Assembly (NCBI GenBank): GCA_000004985.1
Contig: GG738914.1
Direction: 5' to 3' (one strand)
DNA length: 64,000 nt
DNA from: Naegleria gruberi
Taxonomy: Eukaryota
Shown: piece after piece, positions 12,701 through 47,489 of the stretch
Position numbering within the stretch: the first letter of the stretch is position 1
Layout of the letters: each line of letters starts with the position of its first letter
Translations under genes and position numbers: made by a program
Notes under the pieces: model-generated
Database searches by the model: none
What the model was told of the DNA's origin: nothing
The model's input: only the letters and a program-made list of their open reading frames with translations

Positions 12701-15700
12701 AATCTATCATAAATGTATAAATTATATGAATTACTATACTCTGATCGAGAATTATATAATTGCACATAGAAGGAAGTATCTGCAGAGGTTATAATCTGAG
12801 AAGGAATTTCACAATTGATCTCAGAGGAAACTGAAGTTAATACTTTGGCTACTCTAACAATTTGGTTACTAATACTAAATTGACAACCAACAGCAGCGCC
12901 AAGATTCTCACCTACAATTGTTACACTTGTTGGTATGTTTCTTTCAAGGAGGTATGGTTGAACATTGATAATACGTGGCTCGTCATATTTGCTCTTAATC
13001 AAGATTGGCAAGGAGAATGTATCAATTCCATTGAATGTAACAGTAAATGTTGTTGCAAATGGGAATTCTAATATGGAATAATCAGGAAGTGTATTATTCA
13101 ATGGTGGATAGAGAATGAAAAGTGAAGAGTCCACACATGTGAAAATATCACTTGTTGACAATCCAGAACCTTGATAGAAATTAATAATATTCTGCAAAGA
13201 AAGAGTCAGGGATGAGAATGATGAGCTTGTGGCAATTGTGAATTGCAAATTATTGGTATTGCCACAAGGCAATGCTTGACTAAAGTGTAACATTAAACTG
13301 TTTGGTACAATTGTAAGGATTTGATTCGTCTGAACAAAATCAGGTGTAATATTATCAATACTTGTCAGTTGTCCACCTGAACTGTAAGTTAAAGAGTTTA
13401 CAGTATTGAAGGATGAACCAGAATCAAATGACAATAATAAATCGTAGGAACCAGAAGGTGCATTTCCAGGATTACTCAATTCTACATAGGTTGAGGTAAC
13501 AGAGACCGGTGAGAGTCCTATTTCTTGACCTAAAATAGCTCTTCTTGTAGATTTGAGTTGAAGTTTACCTTGAATCTGTGAGATTACCAATACACTTGAA
13601 AAACTTCCATAAACTTTGATAGTAGGTGTTGATGAAAATACTAAGCTTGGAGAAATGCTGCTGAATGTTGGCATTGGAATTACATTGACAGTTAATGAAC
13701 CTGCTTGGATTGGCTTTTGTTGAGAATAAACAACCACAGAATAAGTTCCTGTTGTAGATGGAGCACTATCAAGACAAAAATCAAGACCACTAATAGAGCA
13801 TGAAGTTAGCCAAGTATCTTGTTTGTTGATTCTCAAGGATACTTGTAAAGGTAGCAATGGAGAATCAACTGAAACACCACTGATTGATACCTTAATTGCT
13901 GATCCAGAAATTGCCTGAGTTGGAGAGATGCTTATTGATGCCAAAACAGCAAAATCTAAATGCAAATTGAAATCTCCAAACGAGTAACCATTATCTAAAG
14001 ATAATTGGAAAGGTATTCTCTTTGGTAGTTGTCCTCCAAATAAGTAAGTGAGTGGAACAGTTGTGAATGTAATCTGATTAGTATTTTGGTTGTAGGTACC
14101 ATCAAGAACTTTGCTATTGATATTATCATTGAGCTTGATCTTTGGTTGTGTATTTCTTGGTAAACCAAGGACATTGATACTGACCAAAGTGGCAGAATAA
14201 ACATCAACTGTTGCAGGAGAGGCAGAACCAATAGATCCAGACCATGAATAAATTTCAACAGTTTGACTGAGAGTAATGTACGAGCTGAAATCATCAAAAC
14301 TAAAATCAACAAATAAGAATCCAGGATTGCTTGACAAGATTGTTGGCAAAGGACAATCAACTTGTGTGGCTGACTTTTTAACACAACCATTTGTTCCTTC
14401 ACTCACCACTAATTGGCTGACTGAACTTCTGTACTTGACAGCAAATGTAACGAGTCTACTGTCAAGAGTAGAAGCAAATGCTATGGACAAAGTACCAGAG
14501 TTTGATGTCTTGCTGGCATCAATAATACTTGGAGAAATACTGGAAACAGCTGAAGGTTTGATTGCTGTGAATAGCGAGATCAGTGTCATACTTGGGAAAC
14601 CATCAATGTAGAGAACGACATAGTACTGCTTGGATGTGCTACTCACTTGTGATTGAACATTTGGTGTAAGGCAGTTCAAGAATTTACCTGAGCTTGTGAG
14701 CAATTGGCAATTTTGGAGTGGTGTCATTATCTTCTTATTGTCAATGAATAATAATGTGAATGAGTATTGACTCATCCAATTACTATTTCCACCATGATTT
14801 ATGGATTTAATGGTGTCAAACATATTTGAATAGGTGAGTGTAACATTTTGTCCTCCATACACTGTGCCGTAAGGTAAACTCAATGGGAATCCAACATCCA
14901 AAACTAATATTTTCTTAATATCAGTAATAAAATTACTGGTTCCATCTATTACTAATTGTACAGAGCTAAATCCCGACTTGGTAGTTTTAGCAAGTTTGCA
15001 TTTAACAACAGTGGATGATATAATGATAGCACTAGTTTGATATGATGTACCGTCATTATCATTTTTAACATAGCAATTGAATGAATATGTAGTATTGAGT
15101 GAATATTTTGACAAGTAAATTGTAATGTAACTATAATCTCTAATACTAATGTCTGAAGTGGTCAGTACAAATGGACTGATCTTTTGAACTGTCAATAAAT
15201 CATAAACTACCAAGGAGTAGGTTTCTACTTGGGTGTTAGATTGAGAAATTTCCTTGTTAGCCACATTCATATAGAAGGAAGTAACAAATGGAACAGATTT
15301 CTTTGGTATGTAATTGGTTGGTGGCGAAAGATTATCAACTGGGCCAACATAAGGTGCCACAAAGTATGGTGCTGAGCTTTGGTCAATTCCAGATAAGATG
15401 GAAACGGATTCATCCTTCATCTGAACTGATATTTGCAAATTCTGTGGACTGAAATCGTAAGGAATAACAAATGTTCCATTGTTGAATACCGAAGCAGCGA
15501 CCATATCCATATTATTTCTGTTTGCAATTGGAGTAGGAACTGGCAACACTGGAATCTTCTTGGCATTTGTTAAGTATTGATAGTTTGAACTTTGATCTGG
15601 AATTCCAAGACGAAGTTCTAACATTTTGTTAACCTTACTAACAGCAGTATCTGTGGAAAAGACACAACTCAAAATATCACTTCCAACAATCTTTGTTACG

Positions 15701-18700
15701 AAAGTGCTAGCCACTACAGATCCATCAAGAGTCAACACGCATTTAACAATGCCTGTTTCCACTACGTCAATGGTGGAAACTGAAACTTGGAAGTCTGGAA
15801 TTGTGTTTACAAGTTGATCATTAATTGTCCACAAGTATGGATTAGTAAAGGATATTGTTTTGACAGTTTCAAAGTAAAGAGCAAATTGGTTACTTGTAAT
15901 CTTGAAAGGAACAGATACAGCTCTGGTAATAGCATAAATATCAAAGAATGTCTTTCTACTACCAGTCAATGAAGGACATGTAACCACATTACCAACCACA
16001 AAGGCATCAACTGCAGTTAGAGCAGATGCTGAACTAATAGCACATTTGTAAACAATATTTTCCATAGAGCCGAACGAATTCAAAGATACCTGAACAGTTT
16101 GAGGAGTATTGAGAGTAAATTGTGGAGTGACTGTGGCAACGCTATAGGTATTTTCGAAATATAAAGTAACTGGAGAGGAGGTAATTGAAGTTTCAGAACC
16201 ATTAGCATAATAGAACAAATCAGCAGATACAGAACCAACCTGTGAATAAGTAATAGAGCAAGTAATTTGATCAACAGTGCTAGATAAAGCTGTAACTGTA
16301 GCTTTGTAAAGTGTAGTTGAAATTTTACAATAAAGATTATTCTTCACAATTGCAGATGGTACAACCAAAGATCCATAATTTAACACAAATGAAACAGATG
16401 AAACAGAATTAACCAGTAAAATATCGGATTGACCACTGGCAATACTGAATGGTATTTTTTTCAATACTTGGAAATTTCCCTTGTTGGCTGTAATATCCAG
16501 AGTGAATGGGAAATTATTTGCTAACAAGTATTTAGTTGACACAGAAACTCTATAGTTACCAGAGTTAGAAAATGTAAATGATGAAGACGAAGAGGTGACG
16601 CCTTGAACTAGATTGTATGGAATATTATTTTCCAATTTCAAATTAAACTCATTATCAAATACAGTGGTAAGATTTGAGTTTGGTCCAAGTGTTAATGAAG
16701 AGGAAAATAATGTAATTACTGATGAAGCAACGCCAACAGTATCGATTACAAACGGTGGATTGACTTGTATAATGTCCACTGGTGAGTAGGGAACAATAGG
16801 AAGGGACAATACCTTTGGTACGGTTTTGATTTCCAAGTTATACTGATAGTACGGCTTGATAATACTGCTAGATCTTAAATCTGGTATTATGCATGAATAG
16901 GTTTGGAATGCAATGAGAGAACAAGTGAAAGCTCTTGTTGGTTCATCAACAAAGCTAACTGAAACGCTAGATTGATCTATGAAGTCAGAGTAGAGTGTAG
17001 CAGTTGTTCCACCAGAATACAGAGCAGTTGTTGGACTCAAGAATGATCCACCAATGACGTTAATAGTAGCATAGGTATTGGTAATGGAAAAATATGGTTT
17101 TCCCTGAAGACTCAAACCAATAGAAAGTTGATATATTCCTGAGTAGTGTTCTATTTCTGTGCAATTGAATACACCTTCGTTGATGATTTTTGCAGGGAAT
17201 ACTCTATTCAAACTTTGGTCTGATACTGAATTCCACACACAACCAAAAGAAGCTTCTCCAAAGTTAGATGATGTATTGAATGCTGTTGTGATAACAATTG
17301 AGAATTGTTTGGATGTTTGAACGCTATACATGGAAACAGATTGTATGTTAACTGTTGGAACTACTGTTAACTCTTGGTCGGTATTCGCAGATAGTACGGA
17401 TTGGAATGTTTTGGAAATTGCTTGTACATTCTCAAAGTAATTGATACTCAAAGTAAGTTTACCATAAATGTTTGAATTTGGAATAAAGGCACAATTAATA
17501 GAAGTCTTTTGAGCTACGGTTATTGTTCCCAAAACATATCCATTTGCATTAGATAGCATACAATAAACTAAATTGTTTGCAATAAGACTGTATGGAATTG
17601 TTTGATTAAAACTGACAGGTACAGAAAAGGAACCACTAACTGCAAACAGATTTGATCCTCCAGTAACTGAAACATTACCCTTTTGTAAATAGTAAACCTC
17701 AGAACTGAGTTTGGTTACCTGCAAAGGAGCTGAGTCGAGTAACAAGTTAGTTACATTGAAGAATGATGCAAATTGGACAACTCCAGCATTAACCTTGGAG
17801 GAAATCATTGGATCCAAATCACACAACAAAAAGTCAGGAGTACTGATAGTTTGACCTTTTGTGAATGGAGCATTTGACAGGGTCATATTTACATCTTTAG
17901 ATGTTAAACACTTCCAATCAATACCTAACAATGAGTCATAGCTATTATGGAATGACAAATAAACTTGTGGACTATTTGACACAGTATCTGATGTAATAAC
18001 TTTTGGATAAACATTGTCAACATTCACAGTTTGATAAGCAACAATCTTGAAACTCAGTGTTGTGAGAGGTTCCTTATAGTTAACACCAGCAATTGTGAAT
18101 GAGGAATAAAGGGTTGCTGTTATGGTCTGAATAGTTTTGGAGAATGAAATAGTTCCAGTAGTGATGGTACAGACAATACGATAGGTGGTCTTTGCAATAT
18201 TGCAACCAATCTCACGATTAGTTCCCTCAAAATTCAAACGTAAGCTGTATGTAAGGAAAGAAGTTTCGGATGGTAATGACATAAAGCTATCCTTGGAAAT
18301 AATCTTGAAAGAAATGGTAGGTAATTGAGTCGATTCAATATAATTTGGAGTTGGTTTGATTGTATCAAAAGGTAGTTTGAGTGGAGTTTTAGAAATATCC
18401 AATTGGAACGTTTTGGATGTTGTGGTATCCTTTGTCATTTCTAAAGTTATATTCCTTTCTGATGGACTGTTGATTCCTGTGAAGAGTGTGGATCTTGAAG
18501 ATATTTCACATCTAACCATATCATCTGAGAGAATTGTAGAATCGTAAAGAGTACTGCCAATTCTGCACTTGTACTGGATATTGGTTCTTCTTGTAGCATC
18601 AAAAGTCACTCCCAAAAATACGTATTTGAGATCAGTTGTGTCAGTTGCATAATCCAAGATAGAAGGGAAAGACTCTGCGATACTCAAATATTTGGTTACA

Positions 18701-21700
18701 AAATAGAATGATGTAGAAACAGCAATAATATCAGTTTGCATAGACCCATACGTGATGGAAATACTTGGTGAAATCAGCATTGGTGAATATTTGCCTTGTG
18801 CGTATGGTATTGAAGGATTGTACTGAATTGTCATTTGGCAATTAGAGTCAATTACTATTGGGAAAGTTGAAACTAGAATTTTGTCTTCATAATTTTTGAG
18901 TGTTGCACTTTGAATAGCCAAACAATTGAATTTGGCCTTATTTAGCTTGAAATTGTTAATTGTAAACGATTGGGTACTTTGCACAAAGAGCGCACCACTG
19001 GAATCCAAAGTGTCAATAGTAATGGAGTCACTGGCTATTGGCAATAAATAAGATGAAGTAATAGGTATTCTAGAAATTCCATTAAATACATAAATTCCAA
19101 AATCAGCATAGAAAATTCCATTTTCCAAAACTGGATTATTCAATGTAATATCAATGCTACACACAAAAGTTGATAAAGCAGGAGAATATGTAGCAGTAAA
19201 GAATTGTCCATTCAAGAGGCAGTAATAATTCCAAGTTGCTTCTAAAGTATTATTCTTTGTTGTTTGTACGGATAGTTGCCCACTAACACGACCTGCAATT
19301 GACTGAAGAATATTAGGTGAAGTGGTAATTATACTTTCCTTTACACCATGATAGTAAACAACATTATAAATTGGAATTGACTTGGTCATAACACTTTCCT
19401 TCACTCTAATAACAACTGAGTTTTGTCTTGGAGATGTTACTGGAGGGAATGAAACAGTACAATTGAGAGAATTACCATTAAACGAAGCACTTGAAATACT
19501 TCCATCTACGGAAACACAAGAGTACGAATATTGGGCACCAGAGAATTTGAATTTGAGATAAATTGACAATGTAGAAGAGCCAACATCATTAGTAACAAAA
19601 AATGGTGAACCAATAACATTAGTTGAACTAATCATATCAAAACCAAGTGACTTTCCAACACGGTAGGTTCCTATGTTTTGTCTGGATGCTGTTCTTCCCT
19701 TATATTTGAGCTCCAATACGTAGGAACCAGCATCTGTTGCATTGATATTGCCACACGTTACCAGAGAGCTGGTTTGAGAAACAGCTTGAATACTCTGTAC
19801 ATTAGCACTGAATTGATTGAGAGTACCATCAGAGGTAGCCAAACATTGAAAATTAGATACATTAGAAGGCAACACATTTTGAATAAGCAAGCTGAATATC
19901 AACCCACTAGATGATCCAGTATTTTCAATAGTGAAACTAGGATACTGATATGAAATAGTTGCATCGCTGTTAAGAACAATGAAATCCAAAGAATAATCCA
20001 ATATTTTGGCCTTAATTATTCCAAAACTATTTGATAGCAATCCTGCAGGAATTGGAGCCACTACCCTAGTTGGATATCCTGGATAGGCAGTGTAATATGA
20101 GAGTGCTGTCCATGAAGAGCCTAAAAGCAAGTAGACTTGGCTTCTCAAAGAAAAAGGCAAGTCATACTTGATTTCTACTGAATCAGAGTCACTAGAAGGC
20201 ATTATATTGCTATCAGATCTGAGTTTCAAATCACCCACATAGGTATTAGTGAAATTGAACAGTGAAAAAGTTGCTGATTGTCTATCTTTGTAAGCCAATG
20301 TGAGATTTCCATTGTTGCTAATATTCATAGCTGTTGAATTGAATGAGAAAGTACAATTAAAAGTGATATCAAATACATTTTCATCAGTATCAGAAGTTAC
20401 TCGAGAGGCATAAAGGAATACTCCCTTAAATGATACTGAAGATGAACTGGTTCTGTAAATACAATGTAAAGCATTTTGGTAAGTGGTAATACTAACTGAA
20501 GTAGCATCGAATTTTGATCTAACAGTAAACTGAAGAGTGGAATTATTTGGATCTATGATAGCATACAAGTTATCTGGAAACTTTGAAGTCACCTGAGAGG
20601 GTGATGGAACTCCAAGTTCACAATTTCTTCCAGTTCTCAAATTTAAACAAGCACAATCGTTGGTTACAGGTGTACCAGAAATGAAACACGAACAATATCC
20701 GAAATCACCACAAATACCTCTTCCTGAACATGCATTTTCGTCTTTCTCAAGCAGTCCATAACAAATTTTCTGGTCACAGAATTGGCCACCGAAAAAAGTG
20801 TTTGTACAGACGCACACATCTTTTGCAACACAATTACCTCTAAGATTGCAAACAGTTCCATCAATGGAGAGAATACCATTACAAGTAGTGAATTTACACG
20901 CATTATCGGCAGGGTCATTATAAAAATTAGGGTTACAAACACAAAGATTGTCACCAGGGAGCTTTTCTGTTCCAGGAACAACAGTACAGTTACCATTAAC
21001 ACATCCATTAATCATACCATGACAATAAACATCTTGGCAATAATTACCACCAAACTTGTAACCATACTGGCATGTGCACTTCTCTGGTTCATTACAGCTA
21101 CCTCTTCCATTACACACTAAAGGATCATCAAATGGCAATCCACCACACATTCTTTTACAAGTAGATCCTCCATATCCAGTATCACAAAATTCACAATTAG
21201 TGCCATAAGAATGAGGAGTAGTACAGGAGCAAGTATCAAACGAAACACATGAGCCTCTCCCTGAGCAAACACTAGAATTCTTACCAGATACGCCAAAGCA
21301 AAAGGTACTTGGTGTAGCTAGTATTCCAATTTCGTTATCAGTTAACACTCTGTCGAAAATAACAAATTCGTCGATTGCTCCAGTCACCTTATCGAGGAAG
21401 AATGTTACATTTCCTGATCCTGGAGATCTCAAATTTCCAATAGTGAGAGTACCATTTGGTGGAATTTTTTGGCCCTTCTTGTAATCCAGTTTGAAATCCT
21501 TCAATGTTCCATCAATATAGAGTTTGAGAAGTCCACTATCAGAACTCCAAGATACTGCAACATGACGCCAAGTTTTACTATTGATGTTTACAGTTGTATC
21601 CCATGAATTAGAGGCAGTAAACAAATATCTCAATACGTGTGGTTCATTAATAGAAACTTTCAAGCTTCGATAGTCAGTAAGAACGAATCCAAAATATGTA

Positions 21701-21747
21701 TTATTTACTTGATACGCGAATGGTGCACCTTGCTCCAAATGATTACC
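9703..21747 (-). CDS. exon 3 of 3 (4,014 codons) of a giant (~4,490 aa) membrane protein. It carries the C-half of a laminin-G/pentraxin-like domain, EGF-like Cys repeats, a very long Ser/Thr-rich beta-rich region, a Cys-rich ephrin-receptor/furin-like module, a C-terminal multi-pass TM domain (about 8-10 helices) and an acidic cytoplasmic tail.
   Basis: Single uninterrupted 12-kb frame. The N-terminal part of this exon (…WRHVAVSW…LYIDGTL…IDEFVIFDRVLTDNEI) matches the LamG/ConA-like jelly-roll fold. Many C-x-C-x-G-(Y/F) EGF-like units follow. Then CQECKPGFYKPINDSNACIPCDFNTYSS…, then hydrophobic helices (…LIGFGILMLVVVLIFLLI…, …WIAMLPLAIIYFVVFGLGSILFFLSLYIY…, …IASIVIVVSIVLVLGMLIY…). The track ORF starts at a TTG three codons inside the exon. 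Confidence 0.8.
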   Translation of the reverse strand, partial: GNHLEQGAPFAYQVNNTYFGFVLTDYRSLKVSINEPHVLRYLFTASNSWDTTVNINSKTWRHVAVSWSSDSGLLKLYIDGTLKDFKLDYKKGQKIPPNGTLTIGNLRSPGSGNVTFFLDKVTGAIDEFVIFDRVLTDNEIGILATPSTFCFGVSGKNSSVCSGRGSCVSFDTCSCTTPHSYGTNCEFCDTGYGGSTCKRMCGGLPFDDPLVCNGRGSCNEPEKCTCQYGYKFGGNYCQDVYCHGMINGCVNGNCTVVPGTEKLPGDNLCVCNPNFYNDPADNACKFTTCNGILSIDGTVCNLRGNCVAKDVCVCTNTFFGGQFCDQKICYGLLEKDENACSGRGICGDFGYCSCFISGTPVTNDCACLNLRTGRNCELGVPSPSQVTSKFPDNLYAIIDPNNSTLQFTVRSKFDATSVSITTYQNALHCIYRTSSSSVSFKGVFLYASRVTSDTDENVFDITFNCTFSFNSTAMNISNNGNLTLAYKDRQSATFSLFNFTNTYVGDLKLRSDSNIMPSSDSDSVEIKYDLPFSLRSQVYLLLGSSWTALSYYTAYPGYPTRVVAPIPAGLLSNSFGIIKAKILDYSLDFIVLNSDATISYQYPSFTIENTGSSSGLIFSLLIQNVLPSNVSNFQCLATSDGTLNQFSANVQSIQAVSQTSSLVTCGNINATDAGSYVLELKYKGRTASRQNIGTYRVGKSLGFDMISSTNVIGSPFFVTNDVGSSTLSIYLKFKFSGAQYSYSCVSVDGSISSASFNGNSLNCTVSFPPVTSPRQNSVVIRVKESVMTKSIPIYNVVYYHGVKESIITTSPNILQSIAGRVSGQLSVQTTKNNTLEATWNYYCLLNGQFFTATYSPALSTFVCSIDITLNNPVLENGIFYADFGIYVFNGISRIPITSSYLLPIASDSITIDTLDSSGALFVQSTQSFTINNFKLNKAKFNCLAIQSATLKNYEDKILVSTFPIVIDSNCQMTIQYNPSIPYAQGKYSPMLISPSISITYGSMQTDIIAVSTSFYFVTKYLSIAESFPSILDYATDTTDLKYVFLGVTFDATRRTNIQYKCRIGSTLYDSTILSDDMVRCEISSRSTLFTGINSPSERNITLEMTKDTTTSKTFQLDISKTPLKLPFDTIKPTPNYIESTQLPTISFKIISKDSFMSLPSETSFLTYSLRLNFEGTNREIGCNIAKTTYRIVCTITTGTISFSKTIQTITATLYSSFTIAGVNYKEPLTTLSFKIVAYQTVNVDNVYPKVITSDTVSNSPQVYLSFHNSYDSLLGIDWKCLTSKDVNMTLSNAPFTKGQTISTPDFLLCDLDPMISSKVNAGVVQFASFFNVTNLLLDSAPLQVTKLSSEVYYLQKGNVSVTGGSNLFAVSGSFSVPVSFNQTIPYSLIANNLVYCMLSNANGYVLGTITVAQKTSINCAFIPNSNIYGKLTLSINYFENVQAISKTFQSVLSANTDQELTVVPTVNIQSVSMYSVQTSKQFSIVITTAFNTSSNFGEASFGCVWNSVSDQSLNRVFPAKIINEGVFNCTEIEHYSGIYQLSIGLSLQGKPYFSITNTYATINVIGGSFLSPTTALYSGGTTATLYSDFIDQSSVSVSFVDEPTRAFTCSLIAFQTYSCIIPDLRSSSIIKPYYQYNLEIKTVPKVLSLPIVPYSPVDIIQVNPPFVIDTVGVASSVITLFSSSLTLGPNSNLTTVFDNEFNLKLENNIPYNLVQGVTSSSSSFTFSNSGNYRVSVSTKYLLANNFPFTLDITANKGNFQVLKKIPFSIASGQSDILLVNSVSSVSFVLNYGSLVVPSAIVKNNLYCKISTTLYKATVTALSSTVDQITCSITYSQVGSVSADLFYYANGSETSITSSPVTLYFENTYSVATVTPQFTLNTPQTVQVSLNSFGSMENIVYKCAISSASALTAVDAFVVGNVVTCPSLTGSRKTFFDIYAITRAVSVPFKITSNQFALYFETVKTISFTNPYLWTINDQLVNTIPDFQVSVSTIDVVETGIVKCVLTLDGSVVASTFVTKIVGSDILSCVFSTDTAVSKVNKMLELRLGIPDQSSNYQYLTNAKKIPVLPVPTPIANRNNMDMVAASVFNNGTFVIPYDFSPQNLQISVQMKDESVSILSGIDQSSAPYFVAPYVGPVDNLSPPTNYIPKKSVPFVTSFYMNVANKEISQSNTQVETYSLVVYDLLTVQKISPFVLTTSDISIRDYSYITIYLSKYSLNTTYSFNCYVKNDNDGTSYQTSAIIISSTVVKCKLAKTTKSGFSSVQLVIDGTSNFITDIKKILVLDVGFPLSLPYGTVYGGQNVTLTYSNMFDTIKSINHGGNSNWMSQYSFTLLFIDNKKIMTPLQNCQLLTSSGKFLNCLTPNVQSQVSSTSKQYYVVLYIDGFPSMTLISLFTAIKPSAVSSISPSIIDASKTSNSGTLSIAFASTLDSRLVTFAVKYRSSVSQLVVSEGTNGCVKKSATQVDCPLPTILSSNPGFLFVDFSFDDFSSYITLSQTVEIYSWSGSIGSASPATVDVYSATLVSINVLGLPRNTQPKIKLNDNINSKVLDGTYNQNTNQITFTTVPLTYLFGGQLPKRIPFQLSLDNGYSFGDFNLHLDFAVLASISISPTQAISGSAIKVSISGVSVDSPLLPLQVSLRINKQDTWLTSCSISGLDFCLDSAPSTTGTYSVVVYSQQKPIQAGSLTVNVIPMPTFSSISPSLVFSSTPTIKVYGSFSSVLVISQIQGKLQLKSTRRAILGQEIGLSPVSVTSTYVELSNPGNAPSGSYDLLLSFDSGSSFNTVNSLTYSSGGQLTSIDNITPDFVQTNQILTIVPNSLMLHFSQALPCGNTNNLQFTIATSSSFSSLTLSLQNIINFYQGSGLSTSDIFTCVDSSLFILYPPLNNTLPDYSILEFPFATTFTVTFNGIDTFSLPILIKSKYDEPRIINVQPYLLERNIPTSVTIVGENLGAAVGCQFSISNQIVRVAKVLTSVSSEINCEIPSQIITSADTSFYVQLYNSRSEYSNSYNLYIYDRLKVLNVNPKKTWTYDDIPVTLQVEGITQVVNISKLATVEIRAMFGTVISTDVCTVMSENIIMCIAPKREKGLTSISLSVNRREWYSLNGEGFTYAAFKNGSSNTNALQLSSDAKSMFEYVPCMAGYGASSYRDVCQECKPGFYKPINDSNACIPCDFNTYSSSFQAKECISCPVNTLTLQKASTSLTECICQNNYYLNPSPKKLDDYCVKCNEQSMICNAGNNIHPYPKKGYWMGKHDNYTVYSCLPIEACGGFSIENCTVGYISGKCGACDVGYYKFNGFCTKCGDDAIWRLIGFGILMLVVVLIFLLISSIKLSHLASISIALSFFQVVAMFTKYNVKWPVVMEYSYTASSATLFNTDFINPKCIFPDINQLTKWYLTSLFPVYVFVLFVLLYILGILRNVIVSKFGHHVKFEYREPYRYHNDIDEVEYLKKKEEEKKLNKKQRLKRRIIENLNDWKIWFINLFVWLRNFLVWLLKEKMSAKQMKVFFNQLINGYTAFLSFTFAFIISQASDIFYCTPQPDNTCALVSSPDISILDPQWIAMLPLAIIYFVVFGLGSILFFLSLYIYKKHLKLEVRKDLLIHNPDLTKTELDELKWKPKNPVLLQKVKDFDLRFKFIQNRFKKRLFYWEIIITFRKLLLSIFNTFLLPLQTVTFALITVFIAFLLQSQFVPFKTKFHNLLEWVSLVCTELVLFFGLLFLVDDGAWKGNETLRGFCEWIASIVIVVSIVLVLGMLIYDIYVRRKKDRKKERLARRELERKYGKEKAKSLQALYSKLFGNPLTQMTKVVLLEDEEAQEKWNIIENPLCDSYEEFHDDWVVEENPLFIPDDVDAYARMNTSKRKVEFNLTLFESDSDSSDEDNSKNIRDIMEGLVNLRRIKKKIRLAKQKGGKVKRKFTTSKASKITDKLEKQDKEMELSHNLDVEIYNNTLSRLSSRIAMSPRGGRNRNDSTMTDEESSIDSPRSYSAATSYDHYQKREPKPKDIALVTEEIEIEEDEL

Positions 21748-21793
21748 CTATATTATTAAATATAAACAATAAAAGAATTATTGTAAAACATAC

Positions 21794-22830
21794 CTCTGAT
21801 TCAGAAAGCAACCAAAATGCAACAGTGACTTTAGTGGAAGGAAATGGAAAATTGAGTACATCAGCTCTGGAACTCGATTCTGGTCCAAATTCAAGAGCTT
21901 TTCCAGATGCACCTGTGATATAATTCACAGAACCAACAGTATTCACTGCATTACCTCCACACATATCTGAAAATTGATTATTAGCAATATCTGTACTAAT
22001 ATAAAATTTACATCCTCCATACTGTGTTGGTGTTGGATAGGCAATCTCTACATTTTTCAAATGTTGAATAGTATTATTACAAAAAGGTCCATAATATGGT
22101 GAAAAACAAGAACATCCCTCGTTCAATGATAAACATACTCCATTTCCACTACACTCATCGGTTCCACTGCATGTAGCAGTATAAAGCAATAGAACATTCT
22201 TTGGTGTTTGAGATAGAGTTGAATTGATTGTTTGATAATGTAAAGTTGAATTATAACCAAGAGCAAGATAGGATTTATCTCCAGTTTGCTGTCTCAATAA
22301 GTTATATTCCAAACTTCCAACAGGAGGTAACTTGATTGAATTACTGTATCCAATAAATGTATCATAATCTCCACCATTATTACATTTGCTATTATAAATG
22401 GATGAAATTCTGGAAGCTCCAGCAAAATCTACAGAATTTGCCTTTGCAACCTTCTGACAACCATCTGGAGTGGTGTAAAAGTAATCAGCCAAAACCAAGC
22501 CAGAACTAATAAAACTGAAATTCTTTGCATTGACAAACACATCTCTAGCTGACAAGTAACCAGCTGTACTAGCTGTTTGATAATTAGATGATCTAAACAG
22601 TTCACTCGTTGAAATAAAATTGAATGGCTCACTAATGGCCTTTAAATTAGCATCTGTATAGTATGAACCATTGTACGAGCCAAGATAAGGACTCTGATCA
22701 TAGAAACTCAATCTCAAACGAAAGTAAGGTCTCGTTCCAACTGTTCCACAATTAATATCGGACGATGGATAGGAAGGAGGAACTACGAGAGTGGGATTGC
22801 TGAGTGAAAGAACATTCTTCTCATATCGAT
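21794..22830 (-). CDS. exon 2 of 3 of the giant gene (about 345 codons, includes an EGF-like unit and the N-half of the LamG-like domain)
   Basis: A 46-nt intron (21748..21793, GTATGT…ATATAG, phase 0) joins …VTVAFWLLSES to GNHLEQGAPFAYQ… in frame and completes a LamG-like domain. The 5' side is joined to exon 1 by a 111-nt phase-1 intron (22831..22941, GTATGT…CATCAG). There is no ATG near the ORF 5' end. Confidence 0.7.
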
Positions 22831-23793: not shown

Positions 23794-24564
23794 ATGGCGG
23801 GAAGCAAATATTTCATCACCTTCACACTATTGATCGCCTTCCTTTCCATTTGGTTCTTCTACTTGATCCACTATCGTTTGGAGAATTTTTCTCCCCAACC
23901 AAGAAGAGTCATCTACAATGAAGAAGGCTTTTGTGGTTTCGATGGCAAGAATTACAAATCATCCAATCATGATGATCGGAATGATACTACTGATGATCAA
24001 TCTACCACCCACAATAATAGCAATCCTAATAATTTATCATCATCATCAATTTTAAATATTAATATTAATAATAATAATAATACAAAATTAATGATGAAGA
24101 TGATGCACAAGGGACCTTGTGGGATTTGTTCCAATTTACACGACTATGAAGTGTACAATAGAACACGACTCACACTCACAAGAACGGCAACATTATGTGC
24201 TGTTGGATACTTGCTGTTGGGTGAGAGAGTTTCGAGGTATTGTCTTTCGAGTCAGACTGGAATGAGTGAGCTGTGTGTGGAGTGTTGGTTGCAGAATATT
24301 CAGTGCACCACTGCCATGTGTATGCCAGTGTGTGTGAAACATTTTGTGAGGACGTATTGGGAGAGGTTGGCGATGGCTCTTGGATTGGATTCGATTGGAG
24401 AGTATTCAGCACAATTTGGAAAGGATAATTTATCACCTTGTTTCAAGTGTGATGAGATGGAGTGTGGAAATGGATTTAAGAAATGTTCTGGATTGAATAG
24501 AAGAAATGCTGGATTTGAAACTGATATTCCAAGACCAGATGAGCAAATGTGGAAGGGCAATTAA
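23794..24564 (+). CDS. hypothetical membrane-anchored Cys-rich protein (256 aa)
   Basis: aaaaaaaaATG start. N-terminal hydrophobic helix YFITFTLLIAFLSIWFFYLI. A C-terminal region has about 16 Cys (CGICSN…CVECW…CTTAMCMPVC…CFKCDEMECGNGFKKCSG). It sits divergent from the giant gene across a ~470-nt shared upstream region. Confidence 0.6.
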   Translation: MAGSKYFITFTLLIAFLSIWFFYLIHYRLENFSPQPRRVIYNEEGFCGFDGKNYKSSNHDDRNDTTDDQSTTHNNSNPNNLSSSSILNININNNNNTKLMMKMMHKGPCGICSNLHDYEVYNRTRLTLTRTATLCAVGYLLLGERVSRYCLSSQTGMSELCVECWLQNIQCTTAMCMPVCVKHFVRTYWERLAMALGLDSIGEYSAQFGKDNLSPCFKCDEMECGNGFKKCSGLNRRNAGFETDIPRPDEQMWKGN

Positions 24565-24568
24565 ATCT

Positions 24569-25259
24569 CTAATTATTGATTGCATTCGAAAGTTGATTTT
24601 CAGATGTACTTGTTGACAGAGTGATTTCTACTTGATTGGCTACTGTTCTATCTATTGTAGTATTTTTCTGACTGTTCAATAATAGTTGCTTTTCCTTTTG
24701 TTCAACTGAATCCACAATCTTATACGATTCTGAAAAGAGAGGATTGTATAAGAATAGAACCACAACACTAAAAAACAAAATTCCAAAAGAATTCAAGCAA
24801 TAATCAATAGCTTTCAAATCATTTGATACTAGTGAGGTGATAATTCCAACAATTGCAGAAATAATCTGAACAAAAGCACTCAGAATAAGTGATACCAATA
24901 GGACAAGTGTTTTGATGAGTGGTTTTTGAACCATTCTTACAATAAGACTTCTATTCGATTCCTGTTGCAGATTTAGAGATCTAGACCGAATTGTTTTAAT
25001 CACTCTCAATCCATAATATAAGAATAATCCAAGAGAAATTAACACCAATGAAGTGAATATTACAAAAACAGCTACTGAGAGACCTGTTTGCCAATTGCCA
25101 TCCAAGACACCAATAGTATTCAATACTTTGATTGTGGTGAGTCCAACAACTAGAATACTCATAATGACCGAAGTTGCTCCAGATAGTGTAAATGTCACAA
25201 TTCGCGACACTTTGAATAATTGTTTGCTCATAGCTCCAGACAAGTGTACAGTAGTCAAA
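24569..25259 (-). CDS. 7TM membrane protein paralogue A, exon 2 of 2 (TM4-7 + hydrophilic tail)
   Basis: A ~38-39-nt intron (about 25260..25298) gives …QTV-F-LTTVHLSGAMSKQ… Four further helices, a basic loop RSRSLNLQQESNRS, and a conserved …FGILFFSVVVLFLYNPLFSESYK motif. 64% identical to paralogue B exon 2 by eye. Confidence 0.7.
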
Positions 25260-25298
25260 CTTCTTTTTAAATATATTATTAATAATATTTAAACTTAC

Positions 25299-25744
25299 AA
25301 CACTGTTTGGATGAATCCAATAATTATCACCATTGTAATTGCCTGAAATAGGATTAATGAAAATTCTAAAGCACCGAGCACCAACAGTGGAATAATATTT
25401 GGAGGATTTTCTGTCGTATTCCTCAACTCCTTCCTCAATTTTAGGGATTCTCCAAAATATGCAATTCTAAAAATCAATGCCAATAATTGAATAAAGACAA
25501 GAACTCCAGCAAGGGCTAACAACTTTTTCTGATTACTTTTGATATTCTGCTTTCTTCCGAAATAGCAGACGAAAACAATAAGAGCCAATAAGAAGATAAC
25601 GAATAATACAGCAAATATGGATGAAACAGCGATTGAAGCAATACAATTAGTCTGAGTTGGAAGAATGTAGGTTATATTCTTTCCATTAACCAGTGTTCCA
25701 TTGGCTATCACACCTGTTGGCATGTTGACTGAATGAATGGACAT
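25299..25744 (-). CDS. 7TM membrane protein paralogue A, exon 1 of 2 (glycosylatable N-terminus + TM1-3)
   Basis: ATG at 25744. N-x-T sites are followed by three hydrophobic helices. The exon ends …ACAGTGTT|GTAAGT (phase 2), the same position as in paralogue B. Confidence 0.7.
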
Positions 25745-25884
25745 GTGGATATTTGTTTTTATTGAATGTCTGAAAGTGGATTCTCTTGCAATCTCATTGG
25801 GCTTTTAACTTGATGGTATTAAAGACTCAGGCAAGCAATCACTTGTCAATTAATAAGCTACCTTCAAAAGATGTGTCTAAGCAA

Positions 25885-26548
25885 TTAAATATCTACAGTA
25901 CGAGGTGAGTCTGCTGCAGAACTCAAACTGGAGGCTGATTGCACTCTCTCAGCCATTTCATCTCCTAATAAAGATTGCTTCTCCTTCTCCTCTACAGAAT
26001 CGACTACTTTGTACGATTCACTAAATAAAGGATTGTACAAGAACAGAATCACTACACTAAAAAATAGAATTCCAAAAGAGTTTAAGCTGTAATCTATTGC
26101 TTTAAAATCATTAGAGACACTTGATGTGATTATTCCAATAATTGCTGAAAGAATTAATATAAACGTGCTCAATACTAGAGAAATCAACAATGAGACAGTC
26201 TTGATGAGAGGTTTTTGTACTGTTCTAATAATTAAATTTCTATTAGTTTCTTGTCTTAGATTGAGAGATCTTGATTTGATGGTTGTCACTACTTTAAATC
26301 CAAAGAATGACAGCATGCCAAGAGATGTAAAGATGATAATGATGAAAAGAATAAATACTACCACAGTAATGGCAGTTTGATTCACATCTCCATAAATTCC
26401 AAGTGTTGTCAAAACTTTCGAAATGGTCAAAACAATAATGAAAATACCCATTGCAACAGCCGTGAGAATTCCCATGACAATGGTCATCACTCTCACCACC
26501 TTATAAACCTTCTTTGTCATGGCCCCAGATAAATGTACAGTTGTTAAA
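25885..26548 (-). CDS. 7TM membrane protein paralogue B, exon 2 of 2
   Basis: A 43-nt intron (26549..26591) gives …QYV-F-LTTVHLSGAMTKK… The rest is colinear with paralogue A (…RSLNLRQETNRN…FGILFFSVVILFLYNPLFSESYK…). Confidence 0.7.
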
Positions 26549-26591
26549 CTATTGTTTTTAAATTAGTGTAATTGTGTGAAATAAAACCTAC

Positions 26592-27082
26592 AAGACATAT
26601 TGGATAAATGAAATGATAACAACCATGGTGACTGCTTGGAAGAGTGAAAAAGCAAATTCCAAAGCTCCGAACACTACTAGTGATGTTGTCATTGAATCAA
26701 TGACAAATTTCACACCAATAAGAGATGTATATTTTGCTCTGATTGAAAAGGCAATTGCAAAGTAAATAATTCTCAAAATTAAAGCCATTAATTGAACACC
26801 AACTAGAATAGACGAAAGAATGAGTAAAACTTTTTGATTCCTCTTCATAACCTTCTTGGTTTCTGTTCTAACAAAAAAGCCCAGCTGCACAAGTAGAAAG
26901 ATAGCAAAGCAAACAACAAAGAATCCAGAAACTGTCGTTGATGCAATACAGTTTGGGTGAGTTGGCAAGACAGATGTCAGATTCTTATTGAAACCAGAGT
27001 CCGATTCGTTCAGAACAGCAGACTGCAAAGGACTCCACAATGTTGGTAAGCTAGCAAAGTTCAAGTGAATGGTTGTGGGCAT
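26592..27082 (-). CDS. 7TM membrane protein paralogue B, exon 1 of 2
   Basis: First ATG at 27082 (MPTTIHLNFASL…). The ORF in the track starts at a TTG at 27109. Same three-helix layout. The exon ends …TATGTCTT|GTAGGT (phase 2). Confidence 0.7.
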
Positions 27083-27669: not shown

Positions 27670-30579
27670 ATGTATGGAAATAACAAGAGGAAAAGAAAGT
27701 CATCATCCAAAACGGAGTGGTATGAAGGAGTATCATCATCCGATAGAATTGCATTGGTCAATTTTATTGTAGAATTGATTCCTGGAAGTTTGGAAGTAGT
27801 GAGAAAAAAGCTTGGTGATTTGATGGTGCAATCAAAAACACTAGATGATTTTGCTCAATCAGTTGCTGAATTTGTTCGACAACGAGCAAGAACCTATTCA
27901 GTTGACTATATAAAGGGGATGGTATTGGATAAGTTGGGTTTTAATTCACTATTTCTCACAGAGGAAATTCCTCTCCTTCCTTCACTTCCTTTAACAACAA
28001 TTCAACATAATTTGCTTCAACAACTGCCATCTCTACCTCCTCCTCTCTCTATACCAAATTCACTTTTTGATTTGAGTTCGGATCCATTGGATCTTTTACC
28101 AGGTACAATTACAACACCTTCTCCAAACAGTAATACTGTTAGACAAATGCCAAATAGAAGAATACCTTCACGTGGTATTGGCACTTCAGCACTTTCTATG
28201 TCTTCCTATACATCTTTCCCTGATCTCCCTCCTTCCAATCAAAACAGTGGATTGGTTGTTCGAGGTAATGAATTTAATTCACTGTTATTTGAAAATTTTG
28301 TGGAGAGAAACAAAAGAGTATCACAAGCTGTTAATGTACCTGGAATGAATATTGAAGAGCTAATGGAACAATATAGACATTGTACCAAGCTAGCCAAATT
28401 GTGGATAGTGCAAGATTTGATAACAAGAAATGAACTATCTCTAGTTTGTGGAGATGAATGGAAAGATTCTATTCTACTTTCCAATCTTCCATTTGATTTA
28501 AAGTGTGAGATTATCACATTTATTCCGACTGAAAGTTTTACTAACTGTTGGTGGATTCAATATTTGAGATTAAGAATTATTTCAAAATCAATGAAATCTA
28601 GGCTTGAAGAGACTCTCTTTTCAAGAATGACAAATGAAGGAATTGATCTCAGTGTTGTTATGAGTTCCCAACTCTCTAATTTTACTATCAAAGGAATACT
28701 TTCTCTATTATCCACACATGCAGAGTACGTAAGACAGGGTAATCAGTTTAGTGGTGATTTTTTAATTCCTAAAGGAGTCCCTGAAGAAGCAGATACCGAT
28801 ACATTCCAACTATTATCAAAAAAGGGTCTACTAAGCATGCCCAAATTTAATGGGAATACTTTTCGTTCAAAATTAGAGGAAAATCAATCGATTGATTATT
28901 CAAAATCATTCGATCACGATTATATGGAAACTTTGGTAACTATGGCTGCTAAAGAAGATAATACATCCTATAATCCATTTCAACAACATGTTGCTGCAAT
29001 CAATGATATTACAACAAAACAAAATGGTTTAGTGATGCAGTTGCAAACAGCTTTTCGTCAACCCGAACAAGAATTTACGAGTTTGGAAATTAATAATCCC
29101 TTTATCAAATCTCTTACTATTTCCTTAAATAGAACAAGAAACAATTTTATTACTGACATTTTGACTAATCTTGAGGAGTTGACTATAATAGTTGCACTTA
29201 CCGATTTTACTTATCCATTTTCACAACTCTTGAATAATATCAATCATCTCAAGCTAAAGAAATTGAATATTGTTTGCTACGATCATCTTCCAACAACATT
29301 GTTTCACAGCATTGAAGGTAGATTAGATTTATTAGATTTTGGAGGAACAATTTCTCTTTACGCTGATATTGACGAAGGTTTAATACACACAGCATCTTTG
29401 AGCAACCTACCAATTACTATTTTATTGGGAGATAAGATAATCAAATCAACACTCGATTTCAAAAATTTGACATTTAGTTTTCATCCAATTCGAGACTTTA
29501 ATGTTACAAAATATATTTTTGAAAAGGGATGGTATAGGAAAATAGATCACTCCATAACACGTATAGCACCCTTGTTTACGTCTATTGAAAATAATAAGAA
29601 AAGCACTTTTCCTTTTAGTTGGTTTAACGCTGACCAGATTAAGGAATTATTGAAATACTTTGTTTATGGTAACCAATTTCCTTGGTATGAAACTCCCTCA
29701 AACCAATTAGATGAATCTATTATACAATATTATTTACACATGTTGAATGTTAACCAAAAGCGATTAAGATACTCGGAACCTAAAGACTGCAGCGCAAAGA
29801 TCTTGAATATGATAGTTTGGGGTTATGATATTAGCCTATGTCCTGAACTAATTCTCACCAATTGTACTAATTTTGGAAATATTGGACGGAGACTTGTAAT
29901 TGAAAAATTGAAACTAAATCCAAATTATATTAATGTAGACAAAATCAGGGCTTTAATGCAATCCACGAAATCAAATACTAATGCCTTGTATTGTATTGTA
30001 CAACTTATTCCTTATATTCAAAACAATAATCAAATATTTGAAAGTTATTTACTGAATGGTAAGAAGACAAATGCTCTACTTTCTATTATTTTCCAACCAA
30101 CCATGCTTGCAGAATATGTGTTTGATAATTTTGTTAGTATCTCCAATATTGAGAGTGATGTGGAAGTATCTGGACTAAATATTTCCATGTTTAGTGTTAT
30201 ATTATCTTCACCACTCCCTAATAGACTAGTTTTAAAATTAGCAACAAGTAATCCAAAACTACTCGTTCGAAGAAATAGTGATGGTAATATTCCACTCCAC
30301 TATTGTTTCGGCTCACCTAAACGATATGTACTAATCAAGCCTTTCCTTGAATTAGCTCCAGACACCCTTGATTATGAAGATAAAAATGGCTACAAACCTT
30401 ATCATCTCATTCCAGAATGTTTGGAGGTTCAAGGTCCAAGACATCAAACTGGGATTGATTTGGGAATGGATTTTTTCCAAACTTTCATTCTTCCTGATGT
30501 TGTTAAAGATAGATTAAAGGAAGAATATGAAGCTCAACATGGTTTCCGACTGACCAACCACAAATTTGTGAATAACTGA
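27670..30579 (+). CDS. large hypothetical protein (969 aa), possible degenerate ankyrin-like repeats near the C-terminus
   Basis: aaaaaaaATG start, one long open frame, no confidently recognisable domain. Confidence 0.65.
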   Translation: MYGNNKRKRKSSSKTEWYEGVSSSDRIALVNFIVELIPGSLEVVRKKLGDLMVQSKTLDDFAQSVAEFVRQRARTYSVDYIKGMVLDKLGFNSLFLTEEIPLLPSLPLTTIQHNLLQQLPSLPPPLSIPNSLFDLSSDPLDLLPGTITTPSPNSNTVRQMPNRRIPSRGIGTSALSMSSYTSFPDLPPSNQNSGLVVRGNEFNSLLFENFVERNKRVSQAVNVPGMNIEELMEQYRHCTKLAKLWIVQDLITRNELSLVCGDEWKDSILLSNLPFDLKCEIITFIPTESFTNCWWIQYLRLRIISKSMKSRLEETLFSRMTNEGIDLSVVMSSQLSNFTIKGILSLLSTHAEYVRQGNQFSGDFLIPKGVPEEADTDTFQLLSKKGLLSMPKFNGNTFRSKLEENQSIDYSKSFDHDYMETLVTMAAKEDNTSYNPFQQHVAAINDITTKQNGLVMQLQTAFRQPEQEFTSLEINNPFIKSLTISLNRTRNNFITDILTNLEELTIIVALTDFTYPFSQLLNNINHLKLKKLNIVCYDHLPTTLFHSIEGRLDLLDFGGTISLYADIDEGLIHTASLSNLPITILLGDKIIKSTLDFKNLTFSFHPIRDFNVTKYIFEKGWYRKIDHSITRIAPLFTSIENNKKSTFPFSWFNADQIKELLKYFVYGNQFPWYETPSNQLDESIIQYYLHMLNVNQKRLRYSEPKDCSAKILNMIVWGYDISLCPELILTNCTNFGNIGRRLVIEKLKLNPNYINVDKIRALMQSTKSNTNALYCIVQLIPYIQNNNQIFESYLLNGKKTNALLSIIFQPTMLAEYVFDNFVSISNIESDVEVSGLNISMFSVILSSPLPNRLVLKLATSNPKLLVRRNSDGNIPLHYCFGSPKRYVLIKPFLELAPDTLDYEDKNGYKPYHLIPECLEVQGPRHQTGIDLGMDFFQTFILPDVVKDRLKEEYEAQHGFRLTNHKFVNN

Positions 30580-44184: not shown

Positions 44185-44312
44185 GATTATTTTTTTTTGT
44201 TCGAAATAATTGAACAATTTCTAAATTCCACAAATTACCAGATAAATGATTTATTATGAGCTGCGGCTATTGCACCTTCTTTCTTTTCAATGTTCATCAT
44301 CATTATCTTTAA

Positions 44313-47058: not shown

Positions 47059-47489
47059 CTCTTGGTGTTTTATATATATTTACTGTTGTTGTTGTTACGA
47101 AAATGGAAAAATCTTATTATTCATAATATTTATCAGGTTGTTAATGCTCTCCTTATTATAACTTGTTATTGTTATTGAATAAATTTTCAGTTGCGGATTA
47201 TGACTATTTGTTCAATGAGTGCAATCGCGTTATTCTTTTGTTTTTGAAAATGCTTTAGAGTTGTCTATTTTTTCGGTATGTTATACACCTTAGTGTGGCC
47301 GCCTAGTTGAACAACAAATTTTTCCTTCCTTGACCAAGATACGCTTCATATGGACATAAATTATCCGTTTCAAAAAAGTATAGAGAACCATGTTGGTTTC
47401 CTAACAAGGAATTCCACAGTTTTGAGACAGCAAGAGATACCTGGATTGTTTTTGATTTACAACAAGATATTGAAGCTTAATAACAAATA

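What the first reader, a model, noticed from the sequence alone, without database searches (positions are those of the whole stretch)
24569..27082. Head-to-tail tandem pair of paralogous 7TM genes with a conserved phase-2 micro-intron between TM3 and TM4
Two adjacent minus-strand genes each encode about 385 aa. Each has a glycosylatable N-terminus and seven helices. They share a basic third loop (RSRSLNLxQExNR) and a conserved C-terminal block …FGILFFSVV(V/I)LFLYNPLFSESYK. Both are split at exactly the same codon (…V-F-LTTVHLSGAM…) by tiny introns with GTAAGT or GTAGGT donors. Topology and the NP-containing TM7 are reminiscent of GPCRs, but the family is not recognisable. The structure points to a recent tandem duplication of a lineage-specific receptor family.
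Basis: partly seen in the sequence, partly recalled or inferred. Interest (0 to 1): 0.6.

Follow-up and report, generated by a model that had tools for sequence, protein, structure and literature searches.

The report
Tandem orphan seven-helix receptor-like genes, Naegleria
Two neighbouring genes of the amoeba Naegleria gruberi, one of them apparently unannotated, encode members of a seven-helix membrane-protein family known only from Naegleria and its relatives; the predicted fold resembles G-protein-coupled receptors, but the function has never been tested.

Summary
The window is Naegleria gruberi. Two head-to-tail minus-strand genes (27082..25885, 384 aa; 25744..24569, 378 aa) are 56% identical (E 6e-115). 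Each is split by a phase-2 intron (43 and 39 nt) inside the same Phe codon at the cytoplasmic end of TM3.

- **Annotation.** Gene A is NAEGRDRAFT_74466 ("predicted protein"). Gene B's product is absent from the protein collections searched, so it is probably unannotated.
- **Family.** Both belong to a multigene family: 93 clusters at 50% identity. Every member I could trace comes from Naegleria gruberi, N. fowleri, N. lovaniensis or Willaertia magna.
- **No sequence-level home.** No Pfam model and no PDB sequence matches it.
- **Intron and duplication.** The intron is ancestral to the family, not specific to this pair. The duplication is old (dS saturated, dN/dS 0.11), not recent.
- **Class A motifs.** The DRY, CWxP and NPxxY motifs and the extracellular disulfide are absent.

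The best reading is a lineage-specific receptor-like 7TM family. G-protein coupling is plausible but untested. Interest is moderate.

The parts
26592..27082 (-). Gene A (NAEGRDRAFT_74466) exon 1: N-terminal tail with sequons, TM1, TM2 and TM3 up to the first two bases of the Phe164 codon
   Evidence: spliced product is 100% identical to P0001/EFC37833.1
26549..26591 (-). Gene A intron, 43 nt, phase 2, GTAGGT...CAATAG
   Evidence: removing it reproduces the NCBI protein exactly
25885..26548 (-). Gene A exon 2 including the TAA stop: ICL2, TM4-TM7, helix 8 and C-terminal tail ending ...TVDI
25745..25884 (-). 140-nt spacer between the stop of gene A and the ATG of gene B. It must hold the 3' end of A and the promoter/5'UTR of B.
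   Evidence: no significant similarity to the region upstream of gene A
25299..25744 (-). Gene B exon 1. A second in-frame ATG at 25723 is the start used by the ORF call P0002.
25260..25298 (-). Gene B intron, 39 nt, phase 2, GTAAGT...GAAG. An alternative in-frame acceptor lies 3 nt upstream.
   Evidence: the invariant Phe at this codon in the family (29/29) favours this acceptor
24569..25259 (-). Gene B exon 2 including the TAG stop: ICL2, TM4-TM7, helix 8 and C-terminal tail ending ...AINN
   Evidence: the exact spliced product is not in the 15-billion-protein collection

Best explanation
The locus holds two intact, selectively constrained paralogues of a multigene family of seven-transmembrane proteins. 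I have seen this family only in heterolobosean amoebae (Naegleria gruberi, N. fowleri, N. lovaniensis, Willaertia magna) and in untraced environmental contigs.

**Shown**
- Each protein has a short N-terminal tail carrying glycosylation sequons, predicted to face outwards.
- Each has seven helices in the GPCR/rhodopsin-type arrangement, an amphipathic helix 8 after an invariant proline, and a cytoplasmic C-terminal tail.
- The family expands by local tandem duplication.
- It carries an ancestral phase-2 intron inside an invariant Phe codon at the cytoplasmic end of TM3.

**Inferred**
- The proteins are probably membrane receptors or sensors. A ligand or stimulus would be sensed in the variable outer part: ECL1 and ECL2 are the most variable regions and carry large indels.
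- The signal would pass through the most conserved elements. These are the KRNQK motif in ICL1, the FxQxVFxxT end of TM3 plus ICL2, the basic ICL3 with an R/K-x-x-S/T site, Q-x-P-F-x-K at the start of TM6, and LLLYxPLF at the TM7/helix-8 junction.
- The cytoplasmic partner may be one of Naegleria's many heterotrimeric G proteins.
- The C-terminal Val/Ile found in 43 of 62 family members (gene A ends in Ile, gene B does not) would serve ER export or binding to a scaffold.
For: - **Paralogy and gene structure:**
- **Organism and annotation:**
- **Family size and taxa:** 93 representatives at E<=1e-3 and 42 at E<=1e-10. All named members are Naegleria or Willaertia.
- **Topology:**. A sequon lies in the N-terminal tail of 47 of 48 members.
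- **Selection:** dN/dS 0.11 with intact splice sites in both copies.
- **Conserved motifs:**
- **Most conserved segments:** the inner end of TM3, the inner end of TM6 and TM7.
- **C-terminal residue:** V/I/L in 46 of 62 members against a 20% background, p = 4e-20.
- **Biological context:** N. fowleri has 13 G-alpha subunits, some of them slow exchangers presumed to need a receptor GEF. Only one GPCR is recognisable there by homology, plus unnamed 7TM candidates (PMC9283941).
Against: - No sequence-level link to any GPCR family. Pfam 7tm_1 reaches at best E = 0.22, in 3 of 60 members, which is noise. A PDB profile search finds nothing.
- Foldseek E-values are weak (1.7e-3 and worse) with TM-scores of 0.3-0.6.
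- Class A hallmarks are absent: DRY, CWxP, NPxxY and the TM3-ECL2 disulfide.
- Conservation is only weakly biased towards the cytoplasmic face (p = 0.09).
- Many Naegleria G-alpha subunits self-activate and are controlled by 7TM-RGS proteins, so a GEF-type receptor is not required for all of them.
- I obtained no expression, localisation or ligand data.
Confidence: 0.55

Rival explanations
1. The family is a divergent branch of the THH1/TOM1/TOM3 family (Pfam PF06454). Those are seven-pass proteins of vacuolar and endosomal membranes that act as scaffolds; in plants they bind ARL8 and tobamovirus replicase. On this reading the proteins are not ligand-activated receptors.
For: - UniRef names the N. 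fowleri family member A0A6A5BLT3 (P0094) 'THH1/TOM1/TOM3 domain-containing protein'.
- TOM1-type proteins are also about 300-aa, 7TM-only proteins (PMC3234234, listed).
- Another orphan protist 7TM class (RSF) was also linked only weakly to TOM1, by structure.
Against: - PF06454 is not matched by P0094, by P0003, or by any of 60 family members even at E<=10. HMMER's filters could hide a very weak hit.
- No TOM1 sequence or model was available here for a direct profile or fold comparison: the AFDB libraries were not on the machine.
- The frequent C-terminal Val/Ile and the sequons in the N-terminal tail fit a protein routed through the secretory pathway, but they do not exclude a vacuolar destination.
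Confidence: 0.15
2. The proteins use the 7TM fold for something other than signalling. They could be a channel, transporter or cargo/trafficking factor, like the GOST proteins (TMEM87A) or retinal-free rhodopsin-like proteins.
For: - Conserved polar residues lie in the helices: Q97 and R104 in TM2, E142 in TM3, and Q/E in TM6.
Against: - There is no Lys in TM7 for a retinal Schiff base.
- There is no luminal GOLD domain. The N-terminal tail is 40-50 residues and has low model confidence.
- The top 50 Foldseek hits are all GPCRs.
- A basic ICL3, a helix 8 and a long Ser/Thr-rich C-terminal tail are typical of receptors.
Confidence: 0.15
3. Gene B is a decaying or silent duplicate, which would explain why it is missing from the annotation. 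On this reading only gene A is functional.
For: - The exact gene B product is absent from the protein collections, and no other model resembling it was found.
- Gene B lacks the C-terminal Val/Ile that most family members carry.
Against: - The reading frame is open across both exons, with canonical GTAAGT...AG splice sites.
- All family-invariant residues are retained (F, T, L284, P337 equivalents).
- dN/dS against gene A is 0.11.
- Exon 1 has an identical protein sequence in an independent metagenome assembly, and I saw one synonymous change in the stretch I compared.
Confidence: 0.07

Closest known systems
G-protein-coupled receptors (Pfam clan GPCR_A; class A, B1, C and D structures in the PDB)
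   Same: - Seven helices with N-out, C-in topology.
- A helix 8, a basic ICL3, a glycosylatable N-terminus and a Ser/Thr-rich C-terminal tail.
   Different: - No significant sequence or HMM match.
- No DRY, CWxP or NPxxY motif, and no extracellular disulfide. Gene A has only two Cys, neither in ECL1/ECL2 nor at the top of TM3.
- The family's own motifs are KRNQK (ICL1), FxQxVFxxT (TM3 end), QxPFxK (TM6 start) and LLLYxPLF (TM7/H8).
- Coupling to G proteins is untested.
THH1/TOM1/TOM3 family (PF06454; plant tobamovirus multiplication proteins)
   Same: - 7TM-only proteins of similar size, sometimes counted as GPCR-like.
- One automated source labels an N. fowleri family member with this domain.
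   Different: - The Pfam model does not match any of the 60 members scanned here.
- No direct comparison was possible.
- TOM1 is a tonoplast scaffold rather than a receptor.
Naegleria 7TM-RGS proteins and the single cAR-like candidate GPCR of N. fowleri (PMC9283941)
   Same: - Same organisms and the same presumed pathway (heterotrimeric G proteins).
- Multigene 7TM families.
   Different: - No RGS domain or any other extra domain in this family.
- No Dicty_CAR match.
- The N-terminus is short, not an EGF/lectin ectodomain.
'Remi-sans-famille' (RSF) orphan 7TM class of choanoflagellates and other protists (eLife RP107467 / bioRxiv 2025.04.15.649019)
   Same: - 7TM-only proteins with no similarity to established GPCR classes.
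- Only a weak TOM1 connection.
   Different: [quoted passage not shown] The model here goes directly from TM6 (267-308) to TM7 (310-335) and lacks that motif.
- RSF was not reported from Discoba.

Membership tests
Class A (rhodopsin-like) GPCR, Pfam 7tm_1 | Significant match to the PF00001 profile | tested here: not met
   No hit for A or B at E<=10. Across 60 family members the best E is 0.22, in only 3 members.
Class A (rhodopsin-like) GPCR, Pfam 7tm_1 | E/DRY at the cytoplasmic end of TM3, CWxP in TM6, NPxxY in TM7 | tested here: not met
   The TM3 end is F-x-Q-x-V-F-x-x-T. TM6 has no W/P motif. TM7 is LLLYxPLF, with only the Pro invariant and N336 variable.
Class A (rhodopsin-like) GPCR, Pfam 7tm_1 | Conserved disulfide between the top of TM3 and ECL2 | tested here: not met
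   Gene A has Cys only at positions 45 and 58. No conserved Cys column exists in the family alignment.
GPCR/rhodopsin-type 7TM fold (structural superfamily) | Seven-helix bundle superposable on solved GPCRs, with N-out topology | tested here: met
GPCR (functional definition) | Ligand-dependent guanine-nucleotide exchange on a G-alpha subunit | not testable with these tools
   Requires biochemistry. Only contextual evidence is available (PMC9283941).
THH1/TOM1/TOM3 (PF06454) | Significant match to the PF06454 profile | tested here: not met
   No hit at E<=10 for P0094 (the protein UniRef labels this way) or P0003. PF06454 also does not appear in the family-wide scans: 21 members at E<=1, and 60 members at E<=10, where only the top 25 of 127 matched families were displayed.
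THH1/TOM1/TOM3 (PF06454) | Closer structural or profile similarity to TOM1 models than to other 7TM families | not tested
   The AFDB libraries were unavailable, and no TOM1 sequence could be obtained.
Microbial (type I) rhodopsin | Schiff-base lysine in TM7 | tested here: not met
GOST family (TMEM87, GPR107/108, GPR180) | Luminal N-terminal GOLD-like domain preceding the 7TM | tested here: not met
   The N-terminal tail is only 40-52 residues, disordered in the model (pLDDT < 50 for residues 1-32), with no Pfam hit.
7TM-RGS proteins | C-terminal RGS domain | tested here: not met
   No RGS hit in A, B or the longer family members scanned.
RSF class | [quoted passage not shown] | tested here: not met
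   The model has H267-308 followed directly by H310-335. The loop sequence is TSSVSNDFKAIDYSLN.

The most novel reading that the evidence does not exclude
This family is an independent, Heterolobosea-specific class of true G-protein-coupled receptors. It would be the 'missing' exchange factors for the slow-exchanging G-alpha subunits of Naegleria, where only one GPCR is recognisable by homology. Its conserved TM3-end/ICL2, ICL3 and TM7/helix-8 motifs would be its own solution to the G-protein interface.
Probability: 0.25. Interest if true: 0.6.

Novelty: new variant of a known kind. Interest (0 to 1): 0.38.

Why it matters
Naegleria has an unusually rich G-protein toolkit. N. fowleri has 13 G-alpha subunits, 28 7TM-RGS proteins and about 80 further RGS proteins, yet almost no recognisable GPCRs (PMC9283941). 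A multigene 7TM family with a GPCR-type fold, found so far only in this lineage, is therefore an obvious candidate for the unknown sensors of these amoebae. One of them, N. fowleri, is a lethal human pathogen, and surface receptors make attractive drug targets.

The locus also exposes annotation problems. One paralogue appears to be missing from the gene set, and another tandem pair has been fused into a single gene model. It also provides a clean example of an intron kept within one codon across a fast-evolving family.

Tried and rejected
- **Word-indexed homology searches** with A, B and the family alignment returned only P0001 and P0070. The candidate list was probably swamped by hydrophobic words. 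The exhaustive representative search was needed to find the family.
- **AF2 with only A and B** gave pLDDT 53 and was discarded.
- **AFDB fold libraries** were not available, so TOM1 and other predicted structures could not be compared.
- **TOM1 sequences from paper supplements:** none were held.
- **PDB sequence and profile searches:** no meaningful hit.
- **Cytoplasmic versus extracellular conservation:** only a trend, p = 0.09, so it is not used as evidence.
- **Spliced transcripts:** an exact junction pattern found no hits in the metagenome contigs.
- **Related loci in the metagenome contigs:** the family alignment was too divergent to give a search pattern, and the A+B alignment found no relatives.
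- **The look-up of encoding contigs for P0001:** not on record.
- **Upstream regions of A and B** share no significant similarity.
- **'Recent duplication' rejected** because dS is saturated.
- **NPxxY-like TM7 rejected** because the Asn is not conserved.

Full report
**1. What is there**

| | Gene A | Gene B |
|---|---|---|
| Start (ATG) | 27082 | 25744 |
| Exon 1 | 26592..27082 (491 nt) | 25299..25744 (446 nt) |
| Intron | 26549..26591 (43 nt, GTAGGT...CAATAG) | 25260..25298 (39 nt, GTAAGT...GAAG) |
| Exon 2 | 25885..26548 | 24569..25259 |
| Protein | 384 aa | 378 aa |

Both exon 1 lengths are 3n+2, so both introns are phase 2. They interrupt the same codon (TT|T, Phe) in ...V-F-LTTVHLSGAM....

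The proteins are 56% identical over 329 residues (E 6e-115). tblastn finds no third copy in the 64-kb window. The two genes lie head to tail, separated by 140 nt.

One in-frame alternative acceptor lies 3 nt upstream in gene B. The family-wide invariance of the Phe (29 of 29) favours the acceptor used here.

**2. Organism and annotation**

Gene A's product is identical to 'predicted protein [Naegleria gruberi]', NAEGRDRAFT_74466 / EFC37833.1 / D2VZE9. This validates intron A against the published gene model.

Gene B's spliced product is not in the 15-billion-sequence collection. A homology search with it returns only gene A. Only its exon 1 appears, as an ORF call (P0002) in a metagenome assembly (ERR1078381). 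That exon has an identical protein sequence, and I saw one synonymous change in the stretch I compared. Gene B therefore appears to be unannotated.

**3. The family**

An exhaustive HMMER search of 1.84 billion cluster representatives with the A/B profile found 93 proteins at E<=1e-3, of which 42 are at E<=1e-10.

Every hit that could be traced to a named source is from N. gruberi, N. fowleri, N. lovaniensis or Willaertia magna. The rest are unnamed environmental contigs.

- N. gruberi has at least eight members, counting gene B: NAEGRDRAFT_74466, _48060, _66269, _63893, _61815, _61834 and _63963.
- N. lovaniensis has more than a dozen.
- NAEGRDRAFT_63893 (707 aa) is visibly two tandem family members fused into one model.
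- N. lovaniensis C9374_007817 and C9374_007818 are adjacent family members. Tandem duplication is therefore the family's usual way of growing.

In a neighbour-joining tree A and B are sisters. The next clade contains N. gruberi _48060 and N. fowleri FDP41_004990, at 36-42% identity in the core. That clade also carries the RSLNLKQETNR loop motif.

**4. Age of the duplication and selection**

- dN is 0.40 and dS is about 3.6 (saturated), giving dN/dS of 0.11.
- Third-position identity is 39%.
- The introns and upstream regions show no similarity beyond the splice sites.

Both copies are under purifying selection. The duplication is old, not recent.

**5. The intron**

Twenty of 21 N-terminal ORF fragments among the hits end in '...F-x-Q-x-(V/I/M/L)-L-stop'. 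That is exactly what read-through of TT|GTAA or TT|GTAG produces. C-terminal fragments begin right after this point.

DNA of three further contigs, representing two distant members, shows TT|GTAAGT...AG|T at the same codon, with introns of roughly 40-50 nt (L003, L004, L005).

The intron is thus ancestral to the family. One environmental member (P0004, L002 3199-4368) is a contiguous ORF and has lost it. The position is the cytoplasmic end of TM3.

**6. Topology and fold**

Hydropathy gives seven segments, with K+R concentrated in loops 1, 3 and 5 (6, 4 and 8 residues) and nearly absent from the N-terminal tail and the alternate loops. The topology is therefore N-out, C-in. Forty-seven of 48 members have an N-x-S/T sequon in the N-terminal tail, and 31 have one at the same aligned place.

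AF2 with only A and B was poor (pLDDT 53). With a 27-row family alignment it gave pLDDT 82.4 and pTM 0.78. The helices are 42-76, 81-120, 125-170, 176-212, 218-261, 267-308 and 310-335, plus a helix 8 from 337.

- Foldseek's top 50 hits are all GPCRs, but at weak E-values (1.7e-3 to 2e-2) and TM-scores of 0.3-0.6.

The fold is the generic GPCR/rhodopsin 7TM bundle. The data do not resolve a subfamily.

**7. Sequence-level classification**

Pfam gives nothing for A or B at E<=10. Sixty members give nothing consistent. 7tm_1 reaches only E = 0.22 in 3 members, and PF06454 does not appear in any scan. PDB profile searches are empty.

UniRef labels one N. fowleri member 'THH1/TOM1/TOM3 domain-containing protein', but I could not reproduce that match. 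I also could not obtain a TOM1 sequence or model for a direct test.

Class A hallmarks are absent: DRY, CWxP, NPxxY and the TM3-ECL2 disulfide. There is no TM7 lysine, no GOLD domain, no RGS domain, and no RSF-type extra helix.

**8. Conserved features of the family**

- KRNQK in ICL1 (Asn 92%).
- Q97, L101 and R104 (96%) in TM2.
- E142 in TM3.
- F159-x-Q-x-V-F164-x-x-T167 at the TM3 end.
- A-I/M-S in ICL2.
- A basic (I/V)-(R/K)-x-x-(S/T) stretch at the start of ICL3.
- Q-x-P277-F-x-K and L284 entering TM6.
- F327 and LLLYxP337LF at the TM7/helix-8 junction (Pro 100%).

The most conserved segments are the inner end of TM3, the inner end of TM6 and TM7. ECL1 (with inserts of up to about 40 residues), ECL2 and TM4 are the least conserved. 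The overall cytoplasmic-versus-extracellular difference is only a trend (p = 0.09).

The last residue is V, I or L in 46 of 62 members against a 20% background (p = 4e-20). Typical endings are ...TKV...SSV and ...TQI. This could be a PDZ-ligand-like signal or a terminal-valine ER-export-like signal. Gene A ends in ...TVDI and gene B in ...AINN.

**9. Interpretation**

Shown: two real, constrained paralogues of an orphan 7TM family found so far only in heteroloboseans, with a GPCR-type fold.

Inferred: they are membrane receptors or sensors. The variable outer loops and pocket would diversify by tandem duplication. The conserved cytoplasmic elements would engage a common partner.

In Naegleria that partner could be a heterotrimeric G protein. 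N. fowleri has 13 G-alpha subunits, including slow exchangers presumed to need a receptor GEF. [quoted passage not shown] Many Naegleria G-alpha subunits self-activate and are governed by 7TM-RGS proteins, so coupling is not a given.

The rivals are a TOM1-like endomembrane scaffold, a non-signalling use of the fold, and silence of gene B. They are weighed in the structured fields.

**10. Verdict**

- 7TM, GPCR-like fold, lineage-specific and tandem: yes.
- Recent duplication and NP motif: no.
- Intron shared because of the duplication: no, it is family-wide.

Novelty: a new, uncharacterised family within a known structural kind. Interest is moderate. It would rise if G-protein coupling were demonstrated.

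Noticed in passing
window 23794..24564 (+) versus gene B stop at 24569..24571 (-): A convergent 256-aa ORF has an N-terminal hydrophobic segment, an Asn-rich middle and a Cys-rich C-terminal half, with no Pfam hit. It ends 4 nt from the stop codon of gene B, so the 3' UTRs of the two genes must overlap.
   Followed up: partly
window 9703..21738 (-), probably continuing into ORF 21743..22717 (-): A giant 4011-aa ORF carries a Laminin_G_3/pentaxin-like domain near its N-terminus, EGF-like Cys-rich repeats, an Ephrin_rec_like module at about residue 3160, and a multi-pass transmembrane region with a charged tail. It looks like a huge surface adhesion- or receptor-like protein.
   Followed up: partly
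P0101 = NAEGRDRAFT_63893 (N. gruberi, elsewhere in the genome): This 707-aa gene model is two tandem members of the same 7TM family fused together. The first copy runs to ...DSFTK and is joined directly to TM3 of the second copy. It is a second tandem pair and a mis-annotation.
   Followed up: partly
family-wide; gene A C-terminus at window 25885..25900: The last residue is Val (30), Ile (13) or Leu (3) in 46 of 62 family members, p = 4e-20. It is often preceded by S/T-x. This could be a PDZ-ligand-like or terminal-valine ER-export-like signal. It is present in gene A (TVDI) and absent in gene B (AINN).
   Followed up: partly
L002 3199..4368 (ENA ERZ27315067 k141_1068317): P0004, a full-length family member on an environmental contig, is encoded by an uninterrupted ORF. 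The otherwise conserved phase-2 intron has been lost in that lineage.
   Followed up: partly
L001 (Logan ERR1078381 contig, 1156 nt) = window about 24.6-25.9 kb region: A public 'metagenome' run (PRJEB11402) contains DNA of this very locus. The gene B exon 1 protein is identical, and I saw one synonymous change in the stretch I compared. A very close N. gruberi strain was therefore in that sample.
   Followed up: no
window 44001..50000: A stretch with markedly higher GC (0.36-0.38), strong positive GC skew (0.21-0.27) and negative AT skew (-0.07 to -0.17) compared with the rest of the window. It may be a long, compositionally biased gene on one strand.
   Followed up: no
window 27670..30579 (+): A 969-aa ORF lies immediately upstream of gene A and is divergently oriented. 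It has no Pfam match at E<=1e-3.
   Followed up: partly
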